A stretch of DNA of 64,000 nt from assembly GCA_000004985.1 (NCBI GenBank), contig GG738859.1; one strand, given 5' to 3'. Positions 2,736 to 43,719 of this stretch are shown here, in pieces; within the stretch, counting starts at the first letter, position 1; each line of letters begins with the position of its first letter. This stretch comes from Naegleria gruberi (lineage: Eukaryota). Made by a program: the position numbers and the translations under genes. The notes under the pieces were generated by a model. The model did no database searches, had not been told where the DNA came from, and saw only the letters and a program-made list of their open reading frames with translations.

Positions 2736-3327
2736 TTTTTAAAAAACAATATTTCATTTAATATAATATTATATTGTTATGAGGTGTTGATGGTGATCCG
2801 ATTTAAAATTTATTAATTGTAAGGTAGTTCGGATACCTCCTTCTCCATTCATTCACTCCACCATTCGCGAATCAATTCTATTATGAAAAAACAAACTGTT
2901 GAGTGTGATCATAAATACAATGTTCAAAGTTGTTGAAATATTATGTTGAAAATTTCACAATTAACATTTATGTCACTTTAAAATCTAATAAATCATTTCA
3001 TGGCCAATGAGAGAATCAATATTAAGCCTTCACAAACAATTCATCATCATCACCATTATCATATCTAATAAAAGAAATAAATAAAAGATTCTTTAATACG
3101 CACTCCAATTGTCCTTATCCATTTGATAAGGATGATGATGCATTATACTTCTCCATTCAATCAATAGTAAAAAAACAAACCTATTCAACTCTTTATCAAT
3201 ACCTTCTCTCTAATACATCCGATAAATAGTCCTCCTCCTCTTCTTTCCTACCTTTTATCAATCATAATACAACAACAATAATAATAATAACTGAATTTAA
3301 ATTCTCAATAATTTCAATTTATAAAAA

Positions 3328-3980
3328 ATGTCAATGATTAAATCTCTCAAACGTACCACAACTACCATTGCTAATAATATCACTTCTAAACAATGCAATT
3401 TACTTTCTAATAAGAATGTATTTTCATATAGTAATCAAATTAGATTTAAATATAGTGATAAAGTAATAGATCATCATAAAAATCCAAGAAATAGTGGTTC
3501 ATTAGATGCTAAAGATGCAAATGTTGGTACTGCTCTTGTTGGTGCGTAAGTATTTATTATATTAATATTAATAATATTTAATTTAAATATTTTCAATATA
3601 TACAATACTATTTAAATATTAATATTATTATTATCAAATAATCGGAAAAAAGACCATCTTGTGGAGATGTATTAAAATTTCAAATTCTAGTAGATGATAA
3701 TGGTAAAGTAATTGATGCTAAATTTAAAGCCTTTGGATGTGGTAGTGCAATTGCTAGTAGTAGTTATGCAACAGAACTTGTGAAAGGTAAAACAATTGAA
3801 GATTGTATGATGATTACAAATAATGATATTGCATCACATTTATCTTTACCTCCTGTTAAGAAACATTGTAGTTTATTAGCTGAAGAAGCTATTAGAAAAG
3901 CAACTGAAGATTATATGAAAAAGAAACAAGAAAAGGAAAAATTTAAATTAGAACAACAACAAGAATCACAATCTAATTAA
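3328..3980 (+). CDS. ISCU: iron-sulfur cluster assembly scaffold IscU/ISU1 (mitochondrial); 2 exons join(3328..3545,3653..3980)
   Basis: Exon 1 ends HHKNPRNSGSLDAKDANVGTALVG. A GTAAGT donor lies at 3546 and an AG acceptor at 3651-3652, giving a 107-nt AT-rich intron. Exon 2 continues APSCGDVLKFQILVDDNGKVIDAKFKAFGCGSAIASSSYATELVKGKTIEDC...LPPVKKHCSLLAEEAI, the canonical IscU sequence with its three conserved Cys. Confidence 0.9.
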
Positions 3981-4383
3981 TTATATTTTAATGATTATGA
4001 TGATGATGATTAATAATAATAATTGGAAATTAAGTAATATCAATGTTAATAATAATAGTAGTAGTAGTATGAATTCAACTCAATTATTCTAGATTATCTG
4101 AATAGAAGATGGAATAATTTTCTTGTAGATTTAAAATACTCAACAAACTTACACATTTACTCTTATTTGAGATGTGTTATTATTAACATAATAAAATAGT
4201 AATGTATTACTTTAAATGTTTTTCTTCTCTTGTTGATATTTTCCCTCCAATTATTTTACTCTCTAATGAAAAAAAGAAGGCAGAATATTGTTGTTCTTCA
4301 CCTCCAACCAATGAGTGATGGGAGAGGTTCAAAAAAATGCTGTACACTCTTATGTTGAATTTAAAAATTGTTCGTAAAAAAAA

Positions 4384-7105
4384 ATGACAACAGCCATCGT
4401 TTCCACACCAACTCCTCATCGTACTTCTCTCGGTGGTGGTGGTAGTGGTATTGTTACTAATAAACACATTTCCAATTCTACAACAAATAATAATAACAAT
4501 ACACTCATAATACCTACTTCTTCTAATAACAATTTAAAAGATATAAAATATACTTGTGGTGGTATATTTAATAGTAAACCAATATTAATTGATAATGAAA
4601 ATATAATTGTAATTGCAGTTTCACAAACTATAAAAATATATTCATCTAATACAGGTAAACAATTGAATGAAATTATTCATCATACTAAAAAGATTACACA
4701 AATAATTAAAGATGATTGTAATGAAAATCAAATATATAGTGTATCTGAAGATGGATTATTATGTTTATGGAAGATTGATAATGAAAATAATACATTTATA
4801 TTAATTAAAGAATTATCTATTAATAAACCTATATATGGAATACAACAAGATTCAAATTTAATATATTTATGTATATATGAACATTTTTATAGTATAATTA
4901 AAATTAATATATTAAATAATGAAATTGAATATAATTTATTTCAAATGTTAAATTTTACACAAATGATTTTATCAAATTATTTATTTATAATTGGTGGATT
5001 AGATTTATATATTTATAATTTAAAAAAACAAGAAATTGAAAATATAATTACAAATCAAGGATCAAATTTAACTTGTTTAACATTTTGTAAAGAAAATCAA
5101 ATATTAGCAACTGGAGATGGACATGGTGTCATTTCTTTATATTTTTCAGATGGTACAAAATCATCACATCATTGGCATCCATCTATGGTAACTAATTTAC
5201 AATTTAGTGAAGAAGGTGATTATTTATATTCATCTGGTATTGAAGGTGTTGTTGTTTGTTGGAGATTACCTTCTCTTAAAAAGGATAAATTCCTTGTTAC
5301 TGATTGTAGTATTTCTAATTTTATGTTATCTTCAAATCAAGATGATATTTTCATTTTAGGTAAAGATAATATTATTAGAAAATATGAATTTGCTAGATTT
5401 AATTTAATTTATAGAATTTATGGTATTAATATTGATCAATCTAATTCAATTAATAATAATTCTTTTAATATTACTTCGTAGTAGTAGTACTTTTAATACT
5501 AATACTTTTAATAATACTAGTCAATTTAATAATAATAATATTAATCTATCAAATACAATTAAAGTAATTAATGAACCTAATAGTAATTATATTTTAATGA
5601 ATGGTACAAATTCATTACAATGGTTTAATATTAATGATTCAACTATTAAACATTATGAATCTATTCAATTTAGAGATGTTAAATATGATCCATCTCGTTT
5701 TATTAATTCTGAATCTAAACCTATTAAAAATATTATTGAACATTTGGCTTTTAATCAAAATGCAAATTATTTAGCACACGTTGAAAGTTTTAATCAATTT
5801 AAACAAAATTTAAAATTCTGGAAATTAGATAATAATAATATGAATATGAATAATATGAATAATAGTGTTAATGGTAGTAGTGATAACAATGATAGTACTA
5901 ATAATACTAATAATAGTGGTATTAGTAAAAAAATGAAACCAAAATTAATTACAGTTATTGATAATCCACATTCAGATAAAATTACACAATTATTATTTAA
6001 TAATGGTAATAATAATCAATGTTTAACATCATCTATTGATGGTAAAATTAGAATTTGGAATTTAACAAGTGAATTATTTACATGTCAAGCAATATTAGAA
6101 TATAAAAATTTACCATGTTATTCATTTGATATAAGTAAAGATGGTACATTATTATGTGCTGTATTTGGTAATGAAATTACATTATGGGATTTGGAAAGAT
6201 TTGAATTAATTGAATCATATAATTATCCATATCAATTATTAGATTGTAAATTCATTAATGATGATTATATTGCTATTATTTCTGATAGATATATTTCTTT
6301 ATTCTCTTTATTATTTGATAATAAGAATTTATGGACTATTGATGCTGGTCATGTTCAATCTTTAATTACAAATCAAAATGAACAATTTGCATGTATTGTT
6401 AATGGAAGTGAAATTATTCAATTTTCATTAAATAATAATACTATTAATAATACTAATATATCATCATATCCAATGGTTAATTATCATTTAGATACTGATC
6501 ACTTTTTACAATCTTTATTTTATAAGAATAATCAATTATATTTCTTAAATAAGCAATTTGAAATTTATAATATTATTAATAGTAATAATAATACTACTAC
6601 AAATAATACTAGTACTACTACAAGTAATGTTAATGGTAGTACTGCTACTGCTACTACTACTACTATTAATAATAATAAGAATGAAAAGAATGAAGAACAA
6701 TCCATTGAAGAAAATGGAACAATTAAATCAATTTATGATAAGAAATGGAAATCTTCTGATAGAATTTCATTAATGGAACTTCAAAGAGTTAATACAGTTC
6801 CATTTGCAACTGATATTGGTAATAGAGCATGGAAGGAAATATTTAATGCACCTTCTCATTCTTTAATTTCAATGTCATCTTGTTATTCTACTTTTATGAA
6901 TACTTTTATTTTGAAATCTATTAATAAGAATAATACTTTTAACAATTCAAATGATAATAATACAACAACAACAACAATGAATCATCAATATGCAACACTT
7001 GTTCCAAATACTCAATCATCATCTCAACAACAACAACATGTTGAAGAAAGTTGTGTTCCATCTGCTGATTTAATTAGATTTATTAATAATTATTCAAAAC
7101 AATAA
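4384..7105 (+). CDS. WDR75: WD40-repeat protein, WDR75/UTP17 (NAN1)-like SSU-processome component; apparent frameshift at about 5420-5485
   Basis: ORFs 4384..5481 and 5420..7105 (offset +1) both carry WD repeats (ATGDGHGVISLY, SSGIEGVVVCWRL, TSSIDGKIRIWNL, NEITLWDL). The block LTFCKENQILATGDGHGVISLYFSDG..HHWHPSMVTNLQFSEEGDYLYSSGIEGVVVCWR aligns well with human WDR75 (VACHPTEDCIASGHMDGKIRLWRNF...CLHWHHDMVMDLAFSVTGTSLLSGGRESVLVEWR). No GT..AG pair in the overlap restores the frame. Confidence 0.7.
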
Positions 7106-8455: not shown

Positions 8456-10594
8456 ATGGGTAATACATGTGCTGTTAATCAAACCAATAATTTAGCAGAG
8501 GTGGATGATTTTGCAGAGAATGGAAGATTTAATTCCTATCTTGCAACTTTACCAAAGCTCTTCACCGAAACAGCAGTACACGGAGAGAAATTCCTCTGTA
8601 CCGCATATGTAACATCAAACTTTAAATCTGTGATATTCGCTACAGCCGATATTAAAAAGAACTTTTTTATGAAGCAAGTCACAAGAAAAAAGTTGAATGA
8701 AATTGTAAGTATTGAGGTGTTGATAATGTGTAGTAGAATGTTATTGTTCCACATATTATAGAGAGATAAATTAGACGTTAATAACACTATTGGATGGTGG
8801 AACTTTTTCACGGCATTAAAACATGCTTTTGTTGCTAGAAAAGTGTCCCTTAAAATTGATGGTGATGAATGTTTATTCAATATTGATTTAAATTTTGCTA
8901 ATATTGGAAGAACTTGTTTATCATTACCACTGAAAAGAGATCCAGAAGCCTTTGAACATTTAACTTCATTCTTTGTTAATCCGCTTCATGATTTTTATAG
9001 TGCTAGAATTGAAAGTGCACCTGTAGAAAAATTAGAACAATTAGAAAAACAAATCAAGTTGTACAAAGATAAAATTGCAGAAGTTGAAAGAGAAATTAAG
9101 GAAAAGTATCCAGATGCTAATACACCCGAAGAAGAAGATGATGGAGGAGATGAAGTTCTTGATGAAGATCAAAAACCAGAACCACCAAAAGAACAACCTA
9201 AAGAAGAACCTAAACCAGTTCAACCTAAAGAAGAACCAAAACCAACACCAGTTGAAGTTGAAGATTTTACTAATTTAGAATCTACTAAGGTTATTAAATT
9301 CTTGGGTGATATTAAGAACAAATTAACAGAAAATAATTCGATAACACTGAAAGAAAAACAATCCTTTGAAAGAATTATTGGTATATTATCAACAGAAGAT
9401 AAATATCAAGAACCATTATCTAAGGAATTACTTTCAGAAACAGATATTGATGTATTTGAATTTCTTAAAATCAAATATGCTAAAGATCAACCTGTTAGGT
9501 TGAGAGGAAAAGATGGTCCAATTGAATTTAAACATGGAGAAGAAGCTAGAAAGCATTTGGAATCTAATAATGTAATACTAACAGCTCCAAGGGAACAATT
9601 ACTAACTATATTTGAAAAATTAGATTCATGGAGTTTTGATGTATTTGAAGTATTTAATGCAACAGGAGGAAATCCATTATTTGCAACATGTTATGCTTTA
9701 TTCTTGAAATATGATTTTATTAAGAAGTTTAATATTAATGAAGAGATTTTTATTAACTTTTTAAGAGAATTAGAAGCAGGTTATCATCCAAATCCATATC
9801 ACAATAATGCACACGCAGCAGATGTACTTCAAGCAACACATTTTATTGTTCAAGAAGGTGGTTTAATTGAAAAGTTAGCAGTTGAAGATTGTTTTGCAGC
9901 ACTTGTTTCTGCAACTATTCACGATTATGATCATCCAGGTTTAAATAATGCATTCCAAGTTAATACTAGAAGTTATTTGGCAACATTGTATAATGATAGA
10001 GCTGTATTAGAAAATCACCATTGTTCTCAAGCCTTTGAATTAATGCGTCAAGACAAGTATAATATTCTGAGTGGATTGAGCAATGAACAAAAGAAGGATA
10101 TTCGTGAAACTATTGTTGAAATGTTATTAGCTACTGATATGGGTCAACATGCAAAAATTGTTGGTAAATTTAAAGGTAGACTTGAAGCTAAGGCAGATTT
10201 TAAGGCTAAAGATGATATTAGATTAGCACTTCAAATTGCTATCAAGATGGCTGATGTTTCAAATCCAGCTAGACCTCTAGGCATTGCTTTGAAATGGACT
10301 GAAAGAATTACAGATGAATTCTTTGCACAAGGTGATTTGGAAAGAAATAGTGGTCTTTCAATTTCACCAATGATGGACCGTGCTACTCAACATGTTGGTA
10401 AAGGTCAAATTGCTTTTATCAATTATCTAGTCACTCCAATGTATGAAAGTTTCTTTAATATTGCTCCTGGAATGGCTTTTTGTAAAAAGTTTATTGAAAA
10501 CAATAGATCTTATTGGGAAGTTCACGCAATTGGTGATAAGAATGATTATGATAAATTGTGGTGGGAACCTCCTGTTGCTGAACCAAAAGAATAA
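8456..10594 (+). CDS. class I (HD-domain) 3',5'-cyclic nucleotide phosphodiesterase, probably cAMP-specific; join(8456..8704,8762..10594)
   Basis: The catalytic signatures YHNNAHAADVLQATHFIV, HDYDHPGLNNAF, LATDMGQH and DVSNPARP are typical of a class I PDE. The N-terminus is MGNTCAVN (Gly2/Cys5, a myristoylation/palmitoylation-type motif), followed by a coiled-coil and a Pro/Glu/Lys-rich linker. A GTAAGT donor lies at 8705 and a TATAG acceptor ends at 8761, giving a 57-nt intron with both exons in frame. Confidence 0.85.
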
Positions 10595-12436: not shown

Positions 12437-12871
12437 TTAATTCTTAATACACGTGTCAATGTTCTCTACCAACACTTTTTTTACATGATTATTGAATAAC
12501 AATCCAGCACCACCCATATAAATCGGAATGGCATCTCCCATAGCAATAGGAATATGATTGAGCCATCTAGCTCCCAAATCCATAAATTGTTCCAAACAAT
12601 TGGCAGCAAAATAACTGTCCGTGTCAATGAGCAAACTCCACTCGGTTGTTTTGAATTGCTTGACTATGTACTCTAGTCCGTAGATGAATGCTGATTGAGC
12701 AATTCGCCATTCCAATGATTTACTCAGCCATTCAGCCTTCTCTGAAATTGTTTTGGGATCCAAAGTTTCAAAAACATTGAAAAAGAATTCTTCTACAAGA
12801 TGAATAGATGTAATGTCCAAGTGGTAGATAGTTCCATTTTGATTTTTTTGTTCTGTCAATCTCTGGCACAA
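12437..12871 (-). CDS. fringe-like glycosyltransferase (GT31-type) C-terminal fragment; the N-terminal catalytic half was not found (partial gene or pseudogene)
   Basis: LLIDTDSYFAANCLEQF...IPIYMGGAGLLFNNHVKKVL resembles the DxD region and C-terminal GGAG motif of Fringe/beta-1,3-GT-like domains. The ORF begins directly after an in-frame stop. No convincing upstream exon was found. Confidence 0.3.
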   Translation of the reverse strand: MCQRLTEQKNQNGTIYHLDITSIHLVEEFFFNVFETLDPKTISEKAEWLSKSLEWRIAQSAFIYGLEYIVKQFKTTEWSLLIDTDSYFAANCLEQFMDLGARWLNHIPIAMGDAIPIYMGGAGLLFNNHVKKVLVENIDTCIKN

Positions 12872-14736: not shown

Positions 14737-15061
14737 TTTTTTACAATAAAATCGGAAGTAAAAAAATGAGCAAACTGGTCTGACCTTCTCTGCCAGGCTT
14801 TGTCTTTTTCCAAAACTTCACATTCTTCAATGAAGGAAATTATCGATTTTTGGACGCTTGTTGCTCGTCTTTTGACAGACCCAGCCATTATTTCATCTCA
14901 ACCCAAATAATGTTTAAACCAGGCGAAGGATCATTTGAATTGCATCCAATGAATTATCTCTACTATCTGTTTCATGCGGTAAAATTACTTCGTCAAAGGC
15001 TATTTCTTATAATTTTACTTTAGATATCAAGAGCAGAAAAGCTCAAGATAATACTCCATCT

Positions 15062-15326
15062 GTGAATGATGTAACACATGAACTTAAATCTACCTTAGGT
15101 AGTTTATGGGAAAAGGTTACCAAGTTATTAGATTTTTCAAATGCTTCTATTATGACTTACATTATTTGGGGTTTAATTTATTTGTGGTGTGATTACATTA
15201 CTGGTTATTGGAATTATCATTTTTGTTTTAATATTCCCTTATATTAGTCCATGCCTTACATGGTGTTGTATGTGTTGTTGCTCTGGCGGTGGTGGTCGTA
15301 GTGGAATGATAATCAAGCATGAATAA
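15062..15326 (+). CDS. candidate small Cys-rich membrane protein (CYSTM-like C-terminus CCMCCCSGGGG), split over two frames
   Basis: ORF 15062..15247 (MNDVTHELKSTLGSLWEKVTKLL...TYIIWGLIYLWC) and an overlapping +1 frame ending at 15326 (LLVIGIIIFVLIFPYISPCLTWCCMCCCSGGGGRSGMIIKHE) each carry a predicted transmembrane segment. No homology anchor was recognised. Speculative. Confidence 0.2.
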
Positions 15327-15584
15327 AAAATGGAATTCGACAATCCTCCAAAGTATCTCGTGGTCTTATTAAATTATCTTTAGTCAGCATGTGGTATTTA
15401 CCTGCTGATTTTAATACATTCCTCTAAATTGAAGAATTTGAAAAACACTAAATTGAACCAGAAGAGCAATGAATGCTTTATGATTTTCATAGTTAGATAT
15501 TTAATTTGAAACTGTTTATGAAAAGATTTTGTGAGGAAAACCACCGATGCAAATCGTAGGTCGTGTTAGGATAATGTAAGATAT

Positions 15585-15700
15585 ATGTATTCGGGTGTCA
15601 CGAACTACACTTTCATTACGCCTTCACAATTTAGATTGCTACGGCTTGCAGATATACTAGACTTCTTGGTCCGTGTTTCAAGACGGGACGTTCCCAAATA
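15585..15700 (-). rRNA. about 110-nt fragment homologous to eukaryotic nuclear LSU (25S/28S) rRNA, D2/D3 boundary region; not a complete rRNA gene
   Basis: The minus strand reads CCCGTCTTGAAACACGGACCAAGAAGTCTA...GGCGTAATGAAAGTGTAGTTCGTGACACCCGAA. The first block is the universal eukaryotic LSU motif (the reverse complement of primer LR3, CCGTGTTTCAAGACGGG, sits on the plus strand at 15671-15687). The second block matches yeast 25S CGCGTAATGAAAGTGAACGTAGG. The downstream GGACCCGAAAGATGGTGAACTATGCC block and the 5' LSU motifs are absent. Confidence 0.55.
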
Positions 15701-16978
15701 CCATACCAACAATATAATAATAACCTATAGTTTGCGACACACCCTATCAACTACGACCGGTACCACACCAAAGCCGTGAAGCAATGGCATAGCAAAAGAT
15801 GTTCGTACATTGAGAGCAAACGAGATCACGATTTTTGCTCTAGAGTAATATTGGACACGACAGAAACAGAGAGTACATACACTATTTACTCAGTGGATAC
15901 AAATTCGTGGCTTGTGTTAGGATCAAAACAAAGAAACGTAGACAAATATCTGCAACATTAACGGCCTTTGAACATTATTAAATTCCGTAGAATACGCTCA
16001 ATTACAAATGTCATGTAAAATTTTCTCTATGTTGGTAAGATTACAAGTTCATCACTTTATACATTCACTAAAGTAGAATTTAGAATACTATCCTAGTAGT
16101 TTAAGCGTTGTTTATGGTACAACTAGAATAAAACAAAGTTTACCTAAGTTTGTGGAGTTATTTCGGAAATTATCATCGATACCAATTGGTTTGATTCGAT
16201 ATATTTCATCCAACTCAATTCTTAATTATTGATTCATCATTCAAGGTTCTATGTCCATCTCAATGTTATACTCCAAGATTTTGTAAATATGATTAAGTAC
16301 AACAGTTTGAGTTTCATTTATTTAACTCTAAATGAATTCGAGATATAAACCATTTTTATTACTGTACAAAATAATTAATAATTTCAACATTATTTGGGTT
16401 ATATTTTTCTTAACGTGCAACAGTTGCAGAACCAGTTCCACCACGAGTGAGGTACGAACGAGCAAATGACAAGCAATAATTTAATTTCAAAAAATCAAAC
16501 AATTTGGATAATGCCAAAACACAAAACAACTGTGATCAGCAAAATTGAAGGAGTTTGTTGCTGAGTTTCCAAATGTCGTCCTTCATTCTTTTTGAAGATA
16601 ATTCTGTTGTGAATGGCTGTTTCTGAATGTTAATGACAAGAAGAATGTAACTAACAAATTACAGTCTTGCACTTAAATAAATCCAACTATTCAGTTCTTT
16701 CCAATTTTATTAATTAAACAGAAGAGTGTTGACAGCACCACAGGTGTTGAAGAGAAAAAATTAAAGTCCATTAATGTTCATTATTATCTGATCTATTTAC
16801 CACATACGTGAATGTAGTAAGAATCCAATAAAGCAACCTGCCATTGGGAGATTTGACTCTATTCAGAAGACGTATCATCTAACAAACAAGGCGCAAATTT
16901 TCATCATGAAAAAGAACAGACAATATCATCAACAAGAAGAAAAAGGAATTATCTTCAAAAAGAAAGAAGGACGAAGAG

Positions 16979-19900
16979 ATGGTGGAGAATAATCGACCTA
17001 TTGTTAATGAAGATGGAATCAAGACATCATCTGAAGCTAAACTAACACAATTTAACCACTCCTCACATCATCAAAGGCTTCATCAAAATATTAACAAGGG
17101 TCTCGGGGAAGAACAACAATACAAATTTCCTTCATCTATTACACCAGTTCCACTGGCCAATATTCATGCCAATGCATCAGCGACTAACTTACTGCTAACT
17201 TCATCAACATTCTTTAATTCTTCAAGTGAATCACTTGGTGGTAGAACCATTTCGAGAAACTCCTCCAATACTCTAAAATCCCTACTAGAAAATGTTCTCC
17301 CTCCATTCTTTACTCCATGTGTGCCACCTCATGCATCATTCAATTACTATTCAGAACATTATTGGGGAGAACATGCCTTATCACTAACCTCCTTCTCTCC
17401 AATTCTTCATTATGAAAAAAAGTCATCTCTAACGATTATTTGTCGATACACACCTCAACAAACTAGGAATTCTTCAAGAAGGGAGAGACCTTCCTCTCAA
17501 AAGGAATTAATAGAGAATGAGATTTATTGTCTGAAAGTTTCACTGGACAAACCATCCATTCCAAAGCTGGAAAGGGATGCAGAAATTTCTCGATTCTTGA
17601 CCAATGAATTTTCTCAAGTGTTGGATCCAACACAACAGGTTATTGTCCGTACTAAGGCCTATTTGTCCGATTATTTTATTCTTGTGAGGGAGTTTATTGA
17701 TTGTGTTTCGTTGAGATTATTCATTGATCGATCGAAAACATACAATGCTAGAGTAGAACCAATTACTGATCATGAGAATTTTGAAACCTTAACAAATGAT
17801 ACTGTAACACTTCTCAATGAAGAACAACGAGTGAAAGAAAACATTACAATATTGGAAAGTAATTTAACACTTGCTATTTCTATTTGTATGAGTGTTGCTC
17901 AACTGCATCACTCAAGAGTTTGTCATGCTGACATTAAGCCAGAAAATATAATTGTAGATGGACCTAAATGCAATATAAGATTGATTGATTTTGGAAAGAG
18001 TACATTCCTCCCTTTGGAGCATCCATTTTTATATACTGATAAAATTATTGGTAGTCGAATGTATTGTGCTCCAGAGGCAACGGGGAAAATTCCAAAACCA
18101 ATAGGTTTCCACACTGATATATATTCGCTTGGATTTGTTCTCTTTGAGTTATTTTCCAAAGAACATCCATTTACCAAGTTTAGGGCAGTAGATTTCGTAT
18201 TTCAACATTTGACTCAACAACCAGAGTCCTTGTTTCAAAATCTAGCAAGAAGGTCTTTTATATCAGCCAATGAAGGAAACCTATTCACAGCTGCTACTAG
18301 AGCAATTTCAAGACTTATTACCAAAGCCATTCAAAAATCTATTGAGAAACGTTATTTGAGTATTTTTGGATTGAAACGAGATTTGCTCTACATACAGAAT
18401 GCTATTCAACTAGAAGATATGGAAGCTCTTGAAAATTTTCAAGCTGGTATGAACGATGTTCAAACAACTTTATCCATACCTTATGGTGTCTATGGTAGAG
18501 AGGAAATTTTCGAAAAATTGAAATTGAAACTTGAAAATATGATGGAATCTAGTGAGTCAATGATTGTCCTTCTGGGAGGCTATAGCGGCATAGGTAAATC
18601 AAGTATTGTTAAGGAGTTTAGGACAAGAAGTAAAACAGCAATACAGTTCTTTGAGGCAAAATACGATCAACATATGAATATCCCTTACTATGCCATTATT
18701 TCTATATGTAAACAAATTATTGGCGACGTTCTTGGAGAATCTGAATCAGTGATTAAGGATTTCAGATTCCAATTTGGTACACTTATCAATTCAGATCAAT
18801 TAGAAATGTTGAGTGATGCAATTCCTGATATGTCATATTTATTTACAACTAATCTAGCCAAAAAGCATACCTCCCCATCAATGGGAGATCAGAATGGAGA
18901 GCGTATGAAGCTCTTTTCACAAGGAAGTAAGTAATATTTTTTTAATTTAACATTATAACAACAATATAGTTATTCATCTCTTTAGTTGTTATACTCATTT
19001 AAAAAAGAAGAGATTGTGCATTTTCTTGGATGACTTGCAGTGGACTGATTTTGATAGCATGAAGCTATTAAAGGAAATTCTTGGAACAACTGGTTCTTGC
19101 GATACTGTTCCTCTTTTAATTATTGGAGCATATAGAAATAACGAAGTGGGAAAGGATCATCCTCTATTTTACTTTTTAGAAAATCTCAAACTTAAAGTGA
19201 ACATTGAAGAAATCCAAGTTGTTGAATTGACACAAGATCAATCTAACATGATTGTCTCAGAGTCTTTAAATAGAGCTGAAACAGAAGAACTAACCAAAAT
19301 ACTCTTCCCTAGGACAAATGGAAACCCCTTCTTTTTAAAGCAGTTATTGGCTGGTTTATTTAAGGATGGAGCTATTTATTTCGATACTCAAACAGATACT
19401 ATTACATGGGATAAAAAGAAAATAGAAAATGCAGAATACATATCTGAAAACGTTATTGACTATCTCCTTGGACATTTGGAGAAATTACCAAAACAAACAC
19501 AAGATATTCTTGCATTTGCTTCTTGCTTTGGAAATAAGTTTTCCAATAAAGACATGCTCCACCTACTCAATCAGCAACAAGAAGACAAGATAGACTTGAT
19601 GCAACTAAAAGAAAGATTGAACTATGCGGTGAAGGAGGGATGGATTTCAAATATCAATTCTGGTCATTTACGATTTAATCATGATAGACTCCAACAAGCT
19701 GCTTATGAATCACTGCCTTTGAATGAAAGGTTGAGAATTCACTATAACTATGGTAAGCAGCTTTTAAAAAAAGCAGAGGAAGATGATTCTTTGGAGGAAC
19801 GTTTATTTGATATAGTTGTACAGTTAAATCACAAACATGATGATCCTGCTTTCTTGGAGAATAGAGACGAGAGAAGATTACTCATTGACCTCAATAATAG

Positions 19901-22900
19901 AGCGCAAAGNNNNNNNNNNNNNNNNNNNNNNNNNNNNNNNNNNNNNNNNNNNNNNNNNNNNNNNNNNNNNNNNNNNNNNNNNNNNNNNNNNNNNNNNNNN
20001 NNNNNNNNNNNNNNNNNNNNNNNNNNNNNNNNNNNNNNNNNNNNNNNNNNNNNNNNNNNNNNNNNNNNNNNNNNNNNNNNNNNNNNNNNNNNNNNNNNNN
20101 NNNNNNNNNNNNNNNNNNNNNNNNNNNNNNNNNNNNNNNNNNNNNNNNNNNNNNNNNNNNNNNNNNNNNNNNNNNNNNNNNNNNNNNNNNNNNNNNNNNN
20201 NNNNNNNNNNNNNNNNNNNNNNNNNNNNNNNNNNNNNNNNNNNNNNNNNNNNNNNNNNNNNNNNNNNNNNNNNNNNNNNNNNNNNNNNAAATCTGATATT
20301 CTCAATTTGCCAGATATTGATGATTTGGAAAAGTGGCATCTTATTTGTTTGCTCACTCAATCTTGTCCTGCTGTTTTTCATTTGAATAACTCGCTCAGCA
20401 AACACTACTTTATGATTATGATATTAATATCGTCTGATATAGTTTTAAATAATGGTGTTACTCCTCTTTCTCCATTGTTAATTTCAGTCTTTGCATGGTC
20501 TTGGTGTAATTTTGAGTTTTATCCTCAGATGAACATGTTCTTAGAGGCAGGATTAGAGATGGAAAAGACTAGATACAGGAATGAGCATGAATTGGCAAGT
20601 TGCACATTTATCAAGTTGATGAGTTATTACTTTTCGCCAACAATTAACCCTCTTGAGGTGTGGAATATATCGGAGGAAGCCTTCTTATTGTCTGTGAAAT
20701 CAAAGAACAAACACTATGGTGGTTTCTCTATTCTATGGTATCCATTCCATCACTTATTCTATAGCCACGGAGATGTAAAGACTTCTATTGGATTGAGCTT
20801 GAATTCAATTGAGATTTTAAAGAGAAATGGAAATGTTATGTTGATGGATGCCAGTAAAATGATACTGGAATTGAAATATGTTCTTTCAGGAGATGTAGAC
20901 CATTTCCAGCCAACATATGTAAGCCAAGTGAAGGAATATCCATCCTATAGACAAATGCACTACTCGTTCAAGGGAATTTCACTCTATTTCCAAAATGAGA
21001 TTGAAAAATCTTTCAAGTGTATGGAAAAATCGTATGATTTTAGAGAAGACTCTGTTGGCATGTGTTCTAGCTGGATTGATTTAATCTTTCTAGGTTTAAT
21101 CTCAGCTATCTTTTTGAGAAGTGCTCAAGAAAAGATTGAAAAAGCCCAAGAAATATTGAAATACTCCATAGAAAGATTGGAAATGATTTCCCAAGTTAAT
21201 TCTTCTGTTTTTCTTGCTCCTTTGGAGTTAATAAGAGCCGAGACGTTGTACTCAGAATATTGTAGAACAGGTGTCGAAAATACTAGAAAAATCATTTCTC
21301 ACTATAGAAAGAGTTATGTTATGGCTGAAAAGGAAAGAAATACCTTTTTAGCTAGGCTGATTAATTTGAGAACAGGAGAATTTTATAACAGTCTAGGTAT
21401 GGATGATGGTATTAGTGGAAACTACTTCCTTAGAGCTATGGAATCTTTTGAACAGTTTGGTGCTTCCATCGTTGTTGATTATATTTTGGAGAATTATTCA
21501 GGTCACATTGATGGCTATTCATCATTTAGTAATAGAAATCCTGAACAAGTATTCTCTAATACTTCTCTATCTGATGAATCAACAGATCACACTCTTGCTG
21601 GAGTAACAAAGAGCAGAATTTCTGAATCAACAGAATTGGATTTTAGAGAGATTTTCATTTCAATTCTGCCAATTCTTTCAGAACAAACGTTATCACCAAG
21701 ATGTTGTTTGATTTTGAAGAGAGATTCAACAGTTTATGTAGATGCCGAATTTAATGCAGGTATGAATTCTATTGAAGCACTTTCGTCCATCAAACAATTC
21801 GAAAATAGTGATTTGGACAAGTTTTCAGATTCATTCCCTCTCAAGATGATCCACAGAACTCTAAGATCCAGAACAGAGCAACAACTCGTATGGAATGACA
21901 ATGAGAAAGAGTATTACTTTGTGAAGAATGTAGTGGCCTCTGCTTTATCTATTCCTATCATGAAGAAAAAGACAGTAATAGGTATGCTTTTATTATTTAT
22001 ATTATTTAATGTATTAAGGTTGTATATACTTGGAAAATAAGGAAACGAAGGATGTATTCACAACTGAAAAAATTAACCTTGCCAAACTTATCATCTCTAT
22101 CAGTTTAGACAATGCTGGAATTTTCACATCCATTAACAAATCCTATGCTAGGTTTTTACCTGCTGAATTCCTAAAATTGCTTGGCAAGAGTCATGTAACT
22201 AAGATAAGGTTGGGTGATGCAATTTCTAGGGAAATGACAGTGCTCTTCAGTGATATTTATGGATTTACAGAGATTATGGAGGGACTTTCTGCAAAGGATG
22301 GCTTTGCTTTTATTAATCTACTATTGAAGAGTATTGCACCTCCAATTTCAAGAAACTCTGGATTTATTGACAAGTTTGTTGGTGATGGAATATTGGCATT
22401 GTTTATTGAACCACAAGGAGCTGTCACTGCAGCTTTAGAAATGATTTCAGAATTGGAAGTTTTCAATACTAGAAATAATACCAATGTAAAGTTGGGTATT
22501 GGTTTGCATCATGGTATTGTTCAACTTGGTACAATTGGATATGAGCAACGTTTGGATGCTACTGTTATTTCAGATACTGTGAACACAGCTAGCAGATGTG
22601 AATCTCTCACAAGAACTTTTCATTCACATATTCTAGTTACTAAACCAGTTATGGATGTTGTTACAGTGCCACACAGTGTGATAAGTACCGTATTGGGTAA
22701 ATTCATGCTGAAAGGAAAACACATACCTCATCAAATATACAATATAGCTTCCAAGTCATGGAAAGGAAGTGGTACTGCTAAAGAATTCACTTTACTAAGC
22801 AAAGTTATTGATCTCTTCTCAAGGAGTGAATTTACCGAATCATTTGCCCTCGCAGAAACAATTCTCAAGAATACAAAGAACAATACCATTATAGCTGCAT

Positions 22901-23019
22901 GCAACATGTATAAGGAAGCATCAACATTATACGCATCAGTTGTTTTACCAAGTGAATGGCAAGGTGAAATTAGGTTGACCAAGGATGGAGAAGTCAGAGA
23001 GTACTTTCAAGATAAATGA
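16979..23019 (+). CDS. multidomain signalling protein of about 1980 aa: Ser/Thr protein kinase domain, P-loop STAND/AAA_16-type NTPase, TPR-like helical region, GAF-like domain and class III adenylyl cyclase catalytic domain; proposed join(16979..18930,18986..21981,22019..23019); contains the N-gap
   Basis: The kinase motifs are HADIKPENIIVDG, IRLIDFGKS and GSRMYCAPE...DIYSLGFVLFELFS. The NTPase has Walker A LLGGYSGIGKSSIVKEF and Walker B KKRLCIFLDDLQWTD, plus the FNHDRLQQAAYESL motif typical of kinase-AAA-TPR/GAF sensor proteins. The segment ending KKKTVIG|CIYLENKE is GAF-like. The cyclase has VLFSDIYGFTEI (metal Asp), FIDKFVGDGILALF (substrate Lys and metal Asp) and GTIGYEQRLDATVISDTVNTASRCESLT (Asn/Arg transition-state pair). 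Intron 1 is 55 nt (GTAAT..CTCTTTAG; an alternative is 18927-18969, 43 nt). Intron 2 is 37 nt (GTATGC..TTAAG) and restores the GAF-to-cyclase frame exactly. Confidence 0.7.
19909..20288. other. assembly gap: 380 consecutive N inside the NTPase/TPR region of the kinase-cyclase gene
   Basis: A literal run of n characters sits in the sequence. The reading frame is conserved across it only if the N count is correct. Confidence 0.99.
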
Positions 23020-23290
23020 TTTCAGATAAATGAAAATTAAACAAGCAATCCATCAAACCATTCAGAATCCAATTTAAATATAAATGGAAATTATCACATG
23101 TACAACAATTAGCAAATTAATATTTTTCATATTAATTCTCTTGCCAACAAAGCCTTCATTCAAAACACGTGTTTTTAATCTCTAAAAATAAAACACAAAT
23201 TTTATTAAAAAAAATTGATCAAACAAATAACAACAACAACATCACAATAATAATAACATCATCATCATAACAATATATTCTAATAATAAA

Positions 23291-24903
23291 ATGACAAGTA
23301 AATTAATAGATTTACGTACAATAACAGCATTATCAATATTTCTAACAAGTATAATAATAGTTAATGCTATAAATCAACATCAACAATTTTATACAACAAT
23401 TGTTCATTTAGTTTCATCTAAAATTAGTAGAATAATATTAATAGTAGATTTAATATTATTAATTATTTATTTTGGTAAATTATTATCAAAATTATTTTTT
23501 GGAACTTTAAGAATTTATGAAGAAGAAGTTATTTGGGAAAAGGGTTATTATGCTTTAATTGAAACTTGTTTAGCAATGACCATTTTTAGAGAAGAATTAT
23601 CTACTAGAATGTTATCAATGATGATCACTTGTTTATTTTTAAAAATATTTCATTGGATTTCTGAATTGAGAATTAAACATGTTTGTATTTTATTTATATT
23701 TATTTTATTTAATTATTTATTTTAATAATTTAATTTTATATTTTTATATTTAATTAAATATTTAAATAGTTAGAATCACTTCCAGAAACATCAATTAATT
23801 TATTTTTTAGATTATTTTCATGTTTATTTATATTAATTGGAATTGATATATATTTTTCATATGAATTAATTCAATTTTATTTTAAAGAAGGAGTAACATT
23901 AAGAATATTATTTTTATCTGATTTTCTAATAATGGTAATAATGGGTATTAGTATTAGTATTAGATTAATATTTCATGCATATAATTTATCTAAACAAGAT
24001 GAAGAAGGTAATAGTGAATGGGAATCTAGAGATGTTTATATATTTTATTTAGAAATAATATCAGAATTATTACAATCATTAGTTTATTTATCATTCTTTT
24101 TATTAATAATGACTAAATTTGGATTACCATTTCATTTATTAAGAAATATATATATTACATTAAGTAATGTTAAAAAAAAGATATTAGATTTATATAATTA
24201 TAGAAGAGCATCTTTAACATTGGATCAAAAATTTGAAAATGCAACTCAAAATGATTTAGATGAATTTGATGGAGTATGTGTTATTTGTAGAGAAGATATG
24301 ATTACAAATACTTTACAAAATCCAATTAAAAAATTACCATGTAAACATTTATTTCATTCTAAATGTTTACGTGGTTGTTTAGAACGTTCACAAGAATGTC
24401 CTATTTGTGGTCGTTCAATTGATTTATTATTAAAAGAACAAGAAGATCAATTAAAATTACAACAACAATTACAATTAAATAATTTAAATAATTTAAATAA
24501 TAATAATGGAAATGTTGGACATCATCATCATCATACACCAACAAGTACTAGTAATACTACTACTACTACCACAACTAGTACTACTATTAATAATATTAAT
24601 AATACTAGTAGTAGTACAGTTGATAATAATATTACAAATTTATTTACATCACAACAAGAAATATTAAATCAAATGAATATTAATTTAATTCAACAACAAC
24701 AACAACAACAACCATTAAATTTATTTAATTCTACTACTACTATTAATGATAATCAATTAATTGAAACAAATGAAAAATTACAACAAGTAATGATTGATAT
24801 GTATATTAGATATTTAGAATCAATGAAAGATAATATTAATCAAACTTTAGAACAATTAAAACAATTAAATGATTTTAATCAATCAAATAATAATAATCAA
24901 TAA
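23291..24903 (+). CDS. HRD1: ERAD E3 ubiquitin ligase HRD1/synoviolin (RING-H2); join(23291..23680,23770..24903)
   Basis: The N-terminus (ITALSIFLTSIIIVNAINQHQQFYTTIVHLVSSK...FGTLRIYEEEVIWEKGYYALIETCLAMTIFREE...FLKIFHWISELRI) aligns with human SYVN1 (LTALAVVNAYYQKQQFYPSVVYLTKSS...FGQLRAAEMEHLLERSWYAVTETCLAFTVFRDDF...FLKCFHWLAEDRV). The RING-H2 is CVICREDM...LPCKHLFHSKCLRGCLERSQECPICG. An 89-nt intron runs from GTTTGT at 23681 to AAATAG ending at 23769. The C-terminal tail is Asn/Gln/His/Thr-rich low complexity. Confidence 0.85.
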
Positions 24904-24967
24904 ATATGAATACTTTTGTAAAAATTAAATAAAATTTTAATAAAATTATTAATAAATTCCATATTTA

Positions 24968-26155
24968 TTATTTAGTACCACCCATTAAATGAAAAGCCAA
25001 TTCATATGCATAAAAAGTAACACTATTAACAGGGAATGCTCTAATAACAGTTGTAGTAAAACCTCTATATAAATCTCTAATAGTATATTGTTTTAAAGCC
25101 TTTCTAATATTCATTTCTCTATCATATCTAACAATTGATTGAATTGAATCTGTTGGATATACTAATGCCCATGCTAATGTACCTGCCATACCACCTGACA
25201 TTAATAATGTAAATGCATTATGTTCAAATTTTTTACCATCATTTGAATTACCATTTGAATTATTATTAGAATTATTAAAATTATTTAAATAAAATTGTTC
25301 AAATTTTCTTTTAGATAATTCATAAATTAAAAAATAGGAAGAATAAAAAGTCAATTGATGATTTAAACAAGCAATATAACCATGAAAGAAACCTCTAGTT
25401 TTCCATAAATGTTTAATACAATTTGTAATTGATTGTTTTGATTGATTTGTTTCTTGTCCATTTGAAGTTTGCATTTGAATTTTAATCATTTCAGTTGGAC
25501 CAACAACTAAACTAATTGCCAATCCTGAAAATGCTCCACTTGCAAATATTGATAAATTTTCTTTCCATTCTTTATAATTTTCTTTACTATTTTCAATACT
25601 ATATTTAGACATCCAATCTTTACACATTCCAAATGATCCAAATAATACAAAATTAGAAGCTAATTCTCCTACAAGTGGACTTGATAATCCTCTATATAAT
25701 CCTTTAAAATAATCCCATTTAGTTTTAAATGTTTCATTAAATGAATGATGATCATTTTGAAACACTTGCACTTTTTTAAATTATTATTAAAAATTAAATT
25801 AAATATTATTTAAAAAAATAAAAAATAAAATTAAATATTATTATTATTTTAAAAAAAACATACTTCTAGTTTTAATAGTATCTAAAGGATAACCAACAGA
25901 AATACCAGCTAAACCACCAGCTGAACCAGCAATAAATTCAGCAATGACGTGTGTTTTTTTTTGATTATTGACATTTTCATTATTATTAATAATATTAATA
26001 ACAGAAGTAGAAGTATTATTACAATCAATACAAGGTTGATGATGTGGTAATATATGATGACTAATACTTGTATTTAAATGTGAATCTAAACATTGATTAA
26101 TTACATATTCATTATTTACTTGTTTATTATTATTATTATTCATTGAAATAATCAA
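24968..26155 (-). CDS. mitochondrial substrate carrier family (SLC25) protein; complement(join(24968..25770,25864..26155))
   Basis: It has three Mito_carr repeat signatures (PLDTIKTR, PTEMIKIQMQ and PTDSIQSIVR) and GFFHGY / YRGFTTTVIRAFPVNSVTFYAYE. A 93-nt intron (GTATGT donor; AAAAAAG acceptor) joins ...PLDTIKTR to MQVFQNDHH in frame. The first roughly 60 residues are Asn-rich low complexity. Confidence 0.8.
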
Positions 26156-26968
26156 TTTATTATTAAATATTATACTAGTATGATAGATTATATATTAATT
26201 TGATATATTCAACAAGTTGTTTGTTTTGAAAATGTAGATAATGAATGTGGATGATGTGTTTGTTTTTTTTTATTGAACGAAACAGTACAATAGGATAATA
26301 AAGTAGAGTTGTTGTGAACATGACCATTCACTTGTTGTTGTTACCCAACAAACAAAACAGTTATATTAGCATGAAGCAGAGAATTGTTGTTGATGGTGGA
26401 ATAATAAAATTTGGTCAAGACTTGATGAGAATCTCTCTTTGCGAATTTAAATTCGGAGATTTTTACATTTTGAAAATTCCATAGTATTGTAATGAGCGAA
26501 ATTCTTGTAATACCCAAATAATAATGGTTTATAATGTTGAAAGGAATAGTTGATTATTATAGATTTAATACCATTAGTACTCTTATAACAATTATAATAT
26601 ATACTGTATTAATAGTTTATATTGTAATGATTCATAATAATATTGCATTGTTACTGAGGCAGTTAAAATGTTGTGTTCCACTCTTTGTTAATAAGTTATA
26701 TAAATTGAATATTGTAGAGTACCCAAAATTATTATTGAATGTCTCATCATTCTAATGTTGTTCATCATTACTATTCATCAAATGTTGATCAAATGATGAA
26801 GAATGAAAAAATCTTCCTTAATAAAATCTTCAGAGTTGTTATCCCTCATCCTCATCATTACATTTTTAAAAAAAAAATATTAAGGTGTCTTTGATATCAC
26901 TCCTCCTTATTATCCTTCCTCATATTATTATTATTAAATATCATCATCTTACATCATTTCATTATAAC

Positions 26969-27898
26969 ATGAGTAAATCAGTTATTGCTAATTTTAAAAG
27001 ATTTAATCAAACATCAGCAAGTGTAGAATATTATAAAACACTTGATTTAGTATCATCATTTAGTATTCAAATGGTTGAATTATTAAATTCATTTGTTCAT
27101 CAATGTGAAACAAAATTAAATTCATGTTCACATCATATTAAAAGATTGGAAATTACTTTAACTTTATTAGAATCAAAACTTGAATCTGTTAATGGATTAA
27201 AAGATCAAATGACACAATGGAATTCAGATACATCTATTCAATCACAATATTATCATCATAGAAATCAACAACAACAACATTCAAATACTAATACAACTAA
27301 TACTAATAATAATGGAACAATAACATCAGCACCTCCTCCTCCACTGTCAACATTTTCAGCATCTGTTCCACCTCCACCACCACCTTCATCATCATTTGGA
27401 AGTGTACCTCCTCCACCACCATCAATGGGTAGTACTGGTATTCCACCACCACCACCACTATCAATGGGTAGTGTTCCACCTCCACCACCTCAAATGATGA
27501 TGGGAAGTGTTCCTCCACCACCTCCATCTCAAATGAATTCGCCACCTCAATTAATGACATTACCTCCACCTCCTCCACCAACATCTCAAATTGTATCAAC
27601 AATATCCTTACCACCTCCTCCATCAACAACAATACAACCAGCAAGTGAAGCAACTGAATCTGCATATATTCCAACATGTGAACAAGATCCAAGATTAGCT
27701 CACTATTTCAAGTTACTTAACAAACTTCAAGTACCAAGAGCTCAAATTGATATGAAAATGAAAATGCTTGGCTTAGATTCATCTGTACTTGATACACCAA
27801 ATGATCCTTCTCCTTTAGGTCCATACATTCCTGAAGAAGTATCAAAGCAAGAAGAAAAGGAAGAAACTGAAAGTACTGCCAGTAATGATTCATGGTAA
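26969..27898 (+). CDS. WASHC3: WASH complex subunit 3 (CCDC53)-like protein with a long polyproline region
   Basis: The N-terminal coiled-coil (TLDLVSSFSIQMVELLNSFVHQCETKLNSCSHHIKRLEITLTLLESKLESVNGL) aligns with human CCDC53 (TVAFLNQFVVHTVQFLNRFSTVCEEKLADLSLRIQQIETTLNILDAKLSSIPGL). This is followed by about six SVPPPPPP-type repeats and a conserved C-terminal block (LAHYFKLLNKLQVPRAQIDMKMKMLGLD). Confidence 0.65.
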   Translation: MSKSVIANFKRFNQTSASVEYYKTLDLVSSFSIQMVELLNSFVHQCETKLNSCSHHIKRLEITLTLLESKLESVNGLKDQMTQWNSDTSIQSQYYHHRNQQQQHSNTNTTNTNNNGTITSAPPPPLSTFSASVPPPPPPSSSFGSVPPPPPSMGSTGIPPPPPLSMGSVPPPPPQMMMGSVPPPPPSQMNSPPQLMTLPPPPPPTSQIVSTISLPPPPSTTIQPASEATESAYIPTCEQDPRLAHYFKLLNKLQVPRAQIDMKMKMLGLDSSVLDTPNDPSPLGPYIPEEVSKQEEKEETESTASNDSW

Positions 27899-28561: not shown

Positions 28562-28635
28562 TGCCTCCCTTGGGAATCGAACCCAAGACCTCTGTCTTAC
28601 TAGGACAGCGCTACTGCCAACTGAGCTAGGAAGGC
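28562..28635 (-). tRNA. tRNA-Thr (anticodon AGU), 74 nt with no encoded CCA; D-arm slightly irregular
   Basis: The minus strand reads GCCTTCCTAGCTCAGTTGGCAGTAGCGCTGTCCTAGTAAGACAGAGGTCTTGGGTTCGATTCCCAAGGGAGGCA. The acceptor stem GCCTTCC/GGGAGGC is 7 bp with one G-U. The anticodon stem-loop is CTGTC-CTAGTAA-GACAG, giving anticodon AGT. The T-arm is TTGGG-TTCGATT-CCCAA, with A- and B-box-like sequences present. A TTTT run follows 1 nt after the 3' end on the coding strand (plus 28557-28560). Confidence 0.7.
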
Positions 28636-28829: not shown

Positions 28830-28833
28830 AAAA
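28830..28833 (-). terminator. RNA polymerase III T-run terminator directly after the 5S gene
   Basis: The minus strand reads TTTTAACCATTTTTT immediately 3' of the 5S end. The tRNA-Thr has the same arrangement, with a T-run 1 nt past its 3' end. Confidence 0.5.
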
Positions 28834-28951
28834 GACTACAGCACCACAGGTTCCCAAGTTGTCTCCAACCTCAGTACTGATGTGGCTCGACGATGCTTAA
28901 CTTCTCAAATCGGACGGGATGAGGTGCATTCATCGTGATATGGCCGTAGCC
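28834..28951 (-). rRNA. 5S ribosomal RNA gene (about 118 nt)
   Basis: The minus strand reads GGCTACGGCCATATCACGATGAATGCACCTCATCCCGTCCGATTTGAGAAGTTAAGCATCGTCGAGCCACATCAGTACTGAGGTTGGAGACAACTTGGGAACCTGTGGTGCTGTAGTC. Helix I pairs GGCTACGGC with GCTGTAGTC. The conserved 5S blocks CCGATCTG-like, AAGTTAAGC, GTACT..GGTTGGAGACAAC and GGTGCTGTA are all present. A TTTT run follows immediately on the coding strand. Confidence 0.85.
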
Positions 28952-41242: not shown

Positions 41243-41412
41243 TTTAATTTAATTGATTTGGAAATTGAATTGATTTGAATTATATAATAAAATAAATATT
41301 ATTTAAAATGTTATTGGTGAATATTGTGAATTCATATATGACATGTATTGATAGAGAGAGATGATTCTCATTGTCATTTTGAAACATTTGGTAGTTATCA
41401 TGATTAATTAAA

Positions 41413-43662: not shown

Positions 43663-43719
43663 TTTTTTTTAAAGTAATAGTTTTCACATTGTTTTCTCTT
43701 CACAAACTCTGATAATTTA

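What the first reader, a model, noticed from the sequence alone, without database searches (positions are those of the whole stretch)
15585..15700. Orphan fragment of nuclear LSU rDNA inside a chromosomal intergenic region
About 110 nt on the minus strand match the highly conserved eukaryotic 25S/28S segment CCCGTCTTGAAACACGGACCAAG...GCGTAATGAAAGTG (the LR3-primer region). The adjacent universally conserved LSU blocks are missing, so it is a fragment, not a gene. It lies in a 2.2-kb gene-free, GC-richer stretch (14.9-16.98 kb) flanked by F-box/LRR genes, a truncated glycosyltransferase and the kinase-cyclase gene. Two spurious ORFs (15585-15779, 15776-15961) overlap it. Possible origins are ectopic integration of an rDNA or rRNA fragment (analogous to NUMTs), a rRNA-derived SINE-like element, or a local misassembly.
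Basis: partly seen in the sequence, partly recalled or inferred. Interest (0 to 1): 0.5.

Follow-up and report, generated by a model that had tools for sequence, protein, structure and literature searches.

The report
Decayed rDNA scrap in Naegleria chromosome
A roughly 213-base, mutated piece of the large-subunit ribosomal RNA gene sits between two ordinary genes on a Naegleria gruberi chromosome, which is mildly notable because this amoeba is described as keeping all its rRNA genes on a separate circular plasmid; it looks like dead inserted DNA, not a working element.

Summary
Window 15606-15818 (minus strand, about 213 nt) is homologous to Naegleria LSU rDNA. It matches six environmental Naegleria rDNA contigs at 86-91% (blastn E down to 1e-61; nhmmer E 6.6e-46). 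Rfam LSU_rRNA_eukarya gives 44.3 bits, E 1.5e-9, when only 321 nt are searched.

The piece covers about 126 nt of the D2 expansion segment plus the 87-nt conserved core. It stops abruptly at both ends, and nothing else from the rDNA circle occurs in the 64 kb.

The window is Naegleria gruberi nuclear DNA: the neighbouring kinase ORF is 100% identical to an N. gruberi protein. The literature places Naegleria rRNA genes only on a ~14-kb extrachromosomal circle (CERE).

The fragment has 12 private differences at 180 positions that are invariant in the six Naegleria rDNAs. One is a G>A at a position that reads G in all 43 eukaryotic LSU copies I fetched. It is therefore a decayed copy, not a fresh assembly chimera.

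It has no poly(A), no pol III boxes, no C/D boxes and no convincing target-site duplication.

Best reading: a non-functional, NUMT-like capture of plasmid rDNA, or less likely of rRNA, into a chromosomal intergenic region. This is a new member of a known kind and of modest interest.

The parts
15606..15818 (-). LSU rDNA-derived fragment, about 213 nt, truncated at both ends. It corresponds to roughly 0.5-0.72 kb downstream of the LSU 5' end in Naegleria rDNA.
   Evidence: blastn against L082, L094, L103, L107, L006 and L105: 15606-15806/15818, 86-91% identity, E 1e-52 to 1e-61. nhmmer: 15598-15818, E 6.6e-46, the only hit in 64 kb. Alignment A1.
15606..15692 (-). Conserved LSU core, from CCCGTCTTGAAACACGGACCAAG to GCGTAATGAAAGTGTA. 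The variable hairpin between them (GCAAU-CUAA-AUUGU) is of the Naegleria type.
   Evidence: Rfam RF02543 model positions about 645-729 aligned with high posterior probability. Only 3 differences from the six Naegleria rDNAs: 15664 G>A, 15656 C>T, 15632 T>A. The G at 15664 is GAG in all 43 fetched eukaryotic LSU copies.
15693..15818 (-). Part derived from the 3' half of the D2 expansion segment. This part is lineage-specific and ties the fragment to Naegleria rDNA rather than to any eukaryote in general.
   Evidence: Alignment A1 columns about 66-190. At 37 columns that vary among the six references, the window carries a state seen in at least one reference in 32. There is a private 2-nt deletion at 15759.
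15545..15572 (.). Left copy of an imperfect 28-nt direct repeat, 33 nt outside the fragment. It may be a target-site duplication but is of doubtful significance.
   Evidence: the repeat finder family D3. Smith-Waterman gives 23/28 matches with one gap. Shuffled flanks reach the score in 29 of 2000 trials with 150-nt flanks and in 261 of 2000 with 250-nt flanks.
15895..15923 (.). Right copy of the same imperfect direct repeat, 76 nt outside the fragment.

Best explanation
This is a dead, chromosomally integrated scrap of the Naegleria large-subunit rRNA gene.

Proposed origin (inferred): a piece of about 213 bp from the abundant extrachromosomal rDNA circle (CERE, reported at about 4000 copies per cell) was ligated into a chromosomal double-strand break. 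The break lay in the gap between a minus-strand F-box-like gene and the plus-strand kinase-cyclase gene. This is the same way that organelle DNA becomes NUMTs and NUPTs.

Since then the piece has drifted without selection. It encodes nothing and is not expected to do anything.

Shown: the homology, the Naegleria origin, the truncation at both ends, the single copy in the window, the private mutations, and the lack of retroelement or small-RNA hallmarks.

Inferred: the DNA-level end-joining mechanism, the neutrality, and that the source was the host's own plasmid.
For: - Organism: ORF 16979-18934 is 100% identical to an NCBI N. gruberi protein from a 530-kb contig. That protein's N-terminus maps to 16979, so the fragment lies 1.16 kb upstream of the gene and not inside it.
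- Homology: 86-91% identity over 204-216 nt to six Naegleria rDNA contigs, E to 1e-61. There is a single nhmmer hit in 64 kb when a complete 14,034-bp CERE circle (L006) is the query. Rfam LSU scores 44.3 bits, E 1.5e-9.
- Naegleria-specific origin: the D2 part aligns, and the window agrees with one of the references at 32 of 37 variable columns. It groups within the Naegleria rDNA set on a long branch.
- Decay: 10 substitutions and a 2-nt deletion at 180 genus-invariant columns. One is a G>A where all 43 fetched eukaryotic LSUs have G.
- Abrupt ends on both sides, each running into non-rDNA sequence.
- No poly(A) or poly(T) of 7 or more, no A or B box and no C box within 15450-16000. No snoRNA family hit.
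- The literature states that no rRNA genes are in Naegleria chromosomal DNA and gives the high CERE copy number (PMC5805870; abstracts).
Against: - I could not obtain the N. gruberi NEG-M CERE sequence (AB298288). Some of the 12 'private' differences could therefore be true states of this strain's rDNA, and the age of the insertion is uncertain.
- No reads were available to verify the two junctions.
- No empty-site allele was available, so end-joining cannot be told from reverse transcription.
- The whole piece lies inside mature rRNA, so an RNA intermediate is not excluded.
- The private substitutions show only a mild bias: 5 GC>AT, 3 AT>GC and 2 AT<>TA.
- A marginal 28-nt direct repeat flanks the piece. 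It could point to a mechanism that duplicates the target site.
Confidence: 0.78

Rival explanations
1. RNA-mediated origin. A fragment of mature LSU rRNA was reverse-transcribed, for example by a retroelement reverse transcriptase switching templates, and was inserted as a retro-pseudogene.
For: The fragment lies entirely within mature LSU rRNA, with no ITS or non-ribosomal plasmid sequence. An imperfect 28-nt direct repeat flanks it at 33 and 76 nt, and shuffles reach its score in 29 of 2000 trials with 150-nt flanks.
Against: There is no poly(A) or poly(T) of 7 or more anywhere in 15450-16000. No retroelement protein domain was found in the small ORFs of the gap. The repeat is not adjacent to the homology ends and loses significance with 250-nt flanks, 261 of 2000.
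Confidence: 0.13
2. Assembly or cloning artefact. A piece of the very abundant rDNA plasmid was joined into the scaffold by a chimeric clone or read.
For: The CERE is reported at about 4000 copies per cell (abstracts), so plasmid DNA is over-represented in libraries. Read-level data could not be checked here.
Against: - A chimera would be essentially identical to functional rDNA. This copy has 12 private differences at 180 genus-invariant columns, including a change at a universally conserved G.
- It would need two chimeric junctions only 213 nt apart, each running into non-rDNA sequence.
- The fragment-specific 22-mer is absent from all metagenome contigs, although Naegleria rDNA is present there.
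Confidence: 0.04
3. Functional or mobile element. Candidates are an rRNA-derived SINE, a small RNA, or a plus-strand transcript antisense to 28S rRNA that acts on ribosome biogenesis or on the downstream kinase-cyclase gene.
For: The plus strand, which has the same orientation as the kinase-cyclase gene, carries 87 nt that are nearly complementary to the LSU core (84 of 87).
Against: - No C box, no A or B boxes, no tail, and no Rfam small-RNA hit.
- Single copy in 64 kb.
- A mutation at a universally conserved base.
- No rDNA-like piece upstream of the kinase homologue in a distant relative, L123/L124.
- It lies 1.16 kb upstream of the ATG.
Confidence: 0.03
4. Relic of an ancestral chromosomal rDNA locus, or of a whole integrated CERE copy that was later deleted down to 213 nt.
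For: An rDNA-derived piece exists on a chromosome in a genus said to lack chromosomal rDNA.
Against: - The fast-evolving D2 part is still 86-91% identical to present-day Naegleria rDNAs, which differ from one another by 4-13% over the same columns. The copy therefore dates from within the radiation of this species group, not from before the plasmid arose.
- No other CERE-like remnant occurs anywhere in the 64 kb.
Confidence: 0.02

Closest known systems
NUMTs and NUPTs (nuclear insertions of mitochondrial or plastid DNA)
   Same: A short, truncated, non-functional copy of DNA from a high-copy extrachromosomal genome, sitting in unique chromosomal sequence. It decays by point mutation and small deletions, and has no transposon hallmarks.
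   Different: The donor here is a nuclear, nucleolar rDNA plasmid (CERE), not an organelle genome. The junction mechanism was not shown here.
rDNA orphons and dispersed rDNA pseudogene fragments of other eukaryotes
   Same: A solitary piece of the 18S-5.8S-28S unit away from the functional rDNA, which escapes homogenisation and accumulates mutations.
   Different: In those organisms the source is a chromosomal tandem array. In Naegleria the literature reports no chromosomal rRNA genes at all (PMC5805870), so the fragment must have crossed from plasmid or RNA to chromosome.
Functional LSU rRNA gene on the Naegleria CERE (for example L006, L082, L094)
   Same: 86-91% identity over about 213 nt, including the Naegleria-type hairpin and part of D2.
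   Different: It covers about 213 nt out of more than 3 kb, scores below Rfam's gathering threshold (44.3 against 50 bits), and has a mutated universal position.
rRNA-derived SINEs and retro-pseudogenes (own knowledge: for example the 28S-derived mammalian SINE28)
   Same: The sequence derives from the large-subunit rRNA.
   Different: There is no tail, no internal pol III promoter, no clear target-site duplication and no second copy in the window. Genome-wide copy number could not be tested.

Membership tests
Eukaryotic LSU rRNA gene (Rfam RF02543) | Score at or above the curated gathering threshold (50 bits) | tested here: not met
   44.3 bits in the 321-nt search. Not listed in the whole-window gathering search.
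Eukaryotic LSU rRNA gene (Rfam RF02543) | Full-length molecule with all conserved domains (model of 3401 positions) | tested here: not met
   Only model positions about 560-729 are matched with confidence. nhmmer with whole Naegleria rDNA units finds nothing else in 64 kb.
Chromosomal insertion of extrachromosomal-genome DNA (NUMT-like; rDNA orphon) | Significant homology to the donor genome | tested here: met
   E 1e-61 by blastn and E 6.6e-46 by nhmmer to Naegleria rDNA contigs, including a complete 14,034-bp circle.
Chromosomal insertion of extrachromosomal-genome DNA (NUMT-like; rDNA orphon) | Embedded in unique chromosomal sequence between nuclear genes | tested here: met
   Non-rDNA flanks on both sides. 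An F-box-like ORF ends at 14736, and the kinase gene starts at 16979 with 100% identity to an N. gruberi protein on a 530-kb contig. This holds at assembly level only, because reads were not checked.
Chromosomal insertion of extrachromosomal-genome DNA (NUMT-like; rDNA orphon) | Truncated and mutated relative to the functional donor (released from constraint) | tested here: met
   12 private differences at 180 genus-invariant columns, and a G>A at a position that is G in 43 of 43 eukaryotic LSUs. Caveat: the strain's own CERE was not available.
Chromosomal insertion of extrachromosomal-genome DNA (NUMT-like; rDNA orphon) | Junctions formed by end joining (blunt or microhomology, no target duplication) | not testable with these tools
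   This needs an empty-site allele or the pre-insertion sequence. Only a marginal 28-nt flanking repeat was seen.
SINE or polyadenylated retro-pseudogene | 3' poly(A) or simple-repeat tail, internal pol III A and B boxes, flanking target-site duplication | tested here: not met
   No A or T run of 7 or more and no A or B box match in 15450-16000. The flanking repeat is not adjacent to the fragment and is marginal.
SINE or polyadenylated retro-pseudogene | Many dispersed copies in the genome | not testable with these tools
   Only the 64-kb window is available, and it holds a single copy. The fragment-specific 22-mer is absent from the metagenome contigs.
C/D-box snoRNA (antisense guide to rRNA) | C box RUGAUGA and D box CUGA framing a 10-21 nt antisense element | tested here: not met
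   No RTGATGA on either strand in 15450-16000. No snoRNA family hit over the fragment in the Rfam E-value searches.

The most novel reading that the evidence does not exclude
The fragment is the footprint of a real exchange between the Naegleria rDNA circle and the chromosomes. On this reading a whole or partial CERE integrated and was later eroded, which would make CERE integration and excision part of this lineage's biology. That would bear on how a genome with no chromosomal rRNA genes arose and is maintained. It would also suggest that chromosomes can capture CERE-borne DNA, which is relevant to transgenesis.
Probability: 0.06. Interest if true: 0.55.

Novelty: new member of a known kind. 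Interest (0 to 1): 0.3.

Why it matters
Naegleria is a textbook case of rRNA genes carried only on an extrachromosomal circle, and papers state that there is no rDNA in the chromosomal DNA (PMC5805870; PMC10586121 abstract). This fragment is not an rRNA gene, so it does not overturn that statement. It does show that rDNA-derived sequence has entered a chromosome at least once.

That has three uses. It gives a natural marker for plasmid-to-chromosome transfer. It is a caution for rDNA-based read filtering and for LSU (D2/D3, LR3-site) PCR or metabarcoding of Naegleria. It is also a reason to scan Naegleria genomes systematically for such insertions.

On its own it is a small, probably inert relic.

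Tried and rejected
- Rfam at the gathering threshold on the whole window, and at E<=10 on 14900-17000, did not report the LSU match. It appeared only when 321 nt were searched alone.
- Exact-product look-ups for five window ORFs and for P0001 and P0121 found nothing. I could therefore fetch neither the N. gruberi scaffold nor an independent assembly of the locus.
- The metagenome scan for the fragment-specific 22-mer gave 0 hits.
- The kinase homologue of a distant relative (L123/L124) has no rDNA-like piece upstream. At 58-60% coding identity this test is weak.
- The direct repeat flanking the fragment is only marginal under shuffling, so I do not count it as a target-site duplication.
- A possible plus-strand LSU-like 10-mer at 15547-15557 (GATGCAAATCG) was not supported by nhmmer --max.
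- A snoRNA, SINE or poly(A) retrocopy reading is rejected on motif scans.
- The small ORFs in the gap, including the two that overlap the fragment, have no Pfam support.
- The 'glycosyltransferase' ORF 12437-12871 has no Pfam hit.
- Clark & Cross 1987 (PMC367933) is not held in the library.
- The Naegleria pangenome and N. fowleri nanopore papers do not mention chromosomal rDNA fragments.

Full report
**What is there.** Rfam's eukaryotic LSU model did not report it in the whole-window gathering search or in a 2.1-kb E-value search. When 15480-15800 was searched alone, RF02543 matched the minus strand with 44.3 bits and E 1.5e-9. Model positions about 645-729 aligned at high posterior probability. 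The score is below the family's gathering score of 50, which fits a fragment.

**Whose DNA this is.**
- The PDE gene at 8456-10591 is 75% identical to a Naegleria fowleri protein.
- The ORF at 16979-18934, next to the finding, is 100% identical to an NCBI protein of Naegleria gruberi from a 530-kb contig. That protein begins at 16979.
- The window is therefore N. gruberi nuclear DNA.
- The fragment lies 1.16 kb upstream of the kinase/AAA_16/guanylate-cyclase gene. It sits in the 2242-nt gap that separates that gene from a minus-strand ORF with a weak F-box-like hit.

**Comparison with real Naegleria rDNA.**
- A scan of metagenome contigs for a fragment-specific 22-mer found nothing.
- A second scan used the reverse complement of the Naegleria ITS2 primer, which I first verified in 19 papers. 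It returned 120 loci.
- Six of these loci (L006, L082, L094, L103, L105, L107) carry a Naegleria-type LSU. Their sequence around the LR3 site is almost identical to the window, including 10 bases upstream of it and the lineage-specific hairpin.
- L006 is a complete circle of 14,034 bp after its 127-nt terminal overlap is removed. It serves as a whole-CERE reference.
- blastn of the 64-kb window against the six gives one meaningful hit: 15606-15806/15818 on the minus strand, 204-216 nt, 86-91% identity, E 1e-52 to 1e-61.
- nhmmer --max with L006, L105 and L082 as queries gives the same single hit (15598-15818, best E 6.6e-46). Nothing else from the rDNA unit or spacer appears.
- The alignment (A1) shows that homology starts inside the D2 expansion segment, about 126 nt upstream of CCCGTCTTG. 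It ends abruptly just after GAAAGTGTA.

**State of the copy.**
- 180 columns of the homologous block are invariant in the six Naegleria rDNAs. At these columns the window has 10 substitutions and a 2-nt deletion.
- Three of the substitutions fall in the conserved core: 15664 G>A, 15656 C>T and 15632 T>A.
- The G at 15664 is G in all 43 eukaryotic LSU copies among the fetched loci and in the Rfam consensus.
- At the 37 columns that vary among the references, the window carries a state seen in one of them in 32.
- In a neighbour-joining tree the window sits among the Naegleria sequences on a branch several times longer than theirs, though its placement is poorly supported.
- The source was therefore an ordinary Naegleria rDNA of this species group, and the copy has since drifted.
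- The substitution spectrum is only mildly biased: 5 GC>AT, 3 AT>GC and 2 AT<>TA.

**What it is not.**
- Not an rRNA gene. It covers 213 nt of more than 3 kb, scores below Rfam's threshold, and has a universal base mutated.
- Unlikely to be an assembly chimera. That would need two junctions 213 nt apart and would be expected to match the plasmid almost exactly.
- Nothing marks it as a SINE or poly(A) retrocopy. There is no A or T run of 7 or more, no A or B box and no C box in 15450-16000, and no second copy in the window.
- A snoRNA-like antisense gene finds no support either.
- The two ORFs that overlap it, and the other small ORFs of the gap, have no Pfam support.
- A kinase homologue in a distant relative (L123/L124) has no rDNA-like sequence upstream. 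This is a weak test, given 58-60% coding identity.

**Junctions.** An imperfect 28-nt direct repeat (23/28 matches, one gap) lies at 15545-15572 and 15895-15923. These positions are 33 and 76 nt outside the homology. Shuffled flanks reach its score in 29 of 2000 trials with 150-nt flanks, but in 261 of 2000 with 250-nt flanks. I treat it as unproven. Without an empty-site allele, the mode of insertion cannot be read from the sequence.

**Most likely history.** Papers on the Naegleria rDNA circle report 3,000-5,000 copies per cell, a single rDNA cistron per circle, and no rRNA genes in the nuclear chromosomal DNA (PMC5805870; abstracts). Such an abundant nuclear DNA species is an obvious donor for capture at chromosomal breaks, as happens with organelle DNA. 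I therefore read 15606-15818 as a NUMT-like capture of a CERE fragment that is now decaying.

An rRNA-templated reverse-transcribed copy is the main alternative. The piece lies wholly within mature rRNA, so that route cannot be excluded. It lacks any tail or retroelement context, however. The still-recognisable D2 part argues against a relic from before the plasmid existed, because over the same columns present-day species differ by 4-13%.

**Novelty and weight.** Dispersed rDNA fragments (orphons) and NUMT-like insertions are well known. The new point is the donor and the host. I found no report of chromosomal rDNA-derived sequence in Naegleria in the searchable literature. The finding does not contradict the statement that there are no chromosomal rRNA genes. 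It is a modest curiosity, with some practical relevance for rDNA read filtering and LSU-based typing. It would become more interesting only if a genome-wide scan showed recurrent or large CERE integrations.

Noticed in passing
window 28833-28951 (-) and 28562-28635 (-): A complete 5S rRNA gene (105 bits, full model) lies about 200 nt from a tRNA-Thr(AGT) gene. The 5S gene is therefore chromosomal here, whereas the 18S, 5.8S and 28S genes are on the plasmid.
   Followed up: no
window 8456-10591 (+): A cyclic-nucleotide phosphodiesterase gene, 75% identical to N. fowleri in one uninterrupted tblastn alignment. No identical N. gruberi protein appeared among the listed top 120 hits of the protein search, so it may be unannotated in the public N. 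gruberi gene set.
   Followed up: partly
window 16576-16604 and 16946-16974: A 29-nt inverted repeat, 28/29 complementary, with arms 341 nt apart. The right arm ends 5 nt before the kinase-cyclase start codon. It could be the ends of a MITE-like element or a duplicated 5' leader motif.
   Followed up: no
window 14949-15326 (+): A possible small membrane-protein gene or pseudogene in the supposedly gene-free gap. ORFs 15062-15247 and 15189-15326 overlap in different frames. The second encodes a clear hydrophobic helix followed by CLTWCCMCCCSGGGG. Neither has a Pfam hit.
   Followed up: partly
L006 (metagenome contig JACCDN010942333.1): A 14,161-bp contig with a 127-nt terminal overlap, which makes a 14,034-bp circle at 44.4% GC. 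It appears to be a complete Naegleria rDNA plasmid (CERE) assembled from a metagenome.
   Followed up: partly
window 1-7000, 23000-27000, 32000-47000: Long stretches at 15-25% GC with reading frames full of AAT/ACT/AGT-type repeats (Asn/Thr/Ser-rich low-complexity coding). They alternate with 30-36% GC stretches, so the window is compositionally patchy.
   Followed up: no
window 16979-23019 (+): A large gene that combines a protein kinase domain, an AAA_16/STAND NTPase domain and a C-terminal adenylate/guanylate cyclase domain, across ORFs separated by short gaps that are probably introns. The NCBI protein for it is marked partial (911 aa).
   Followed up: partly
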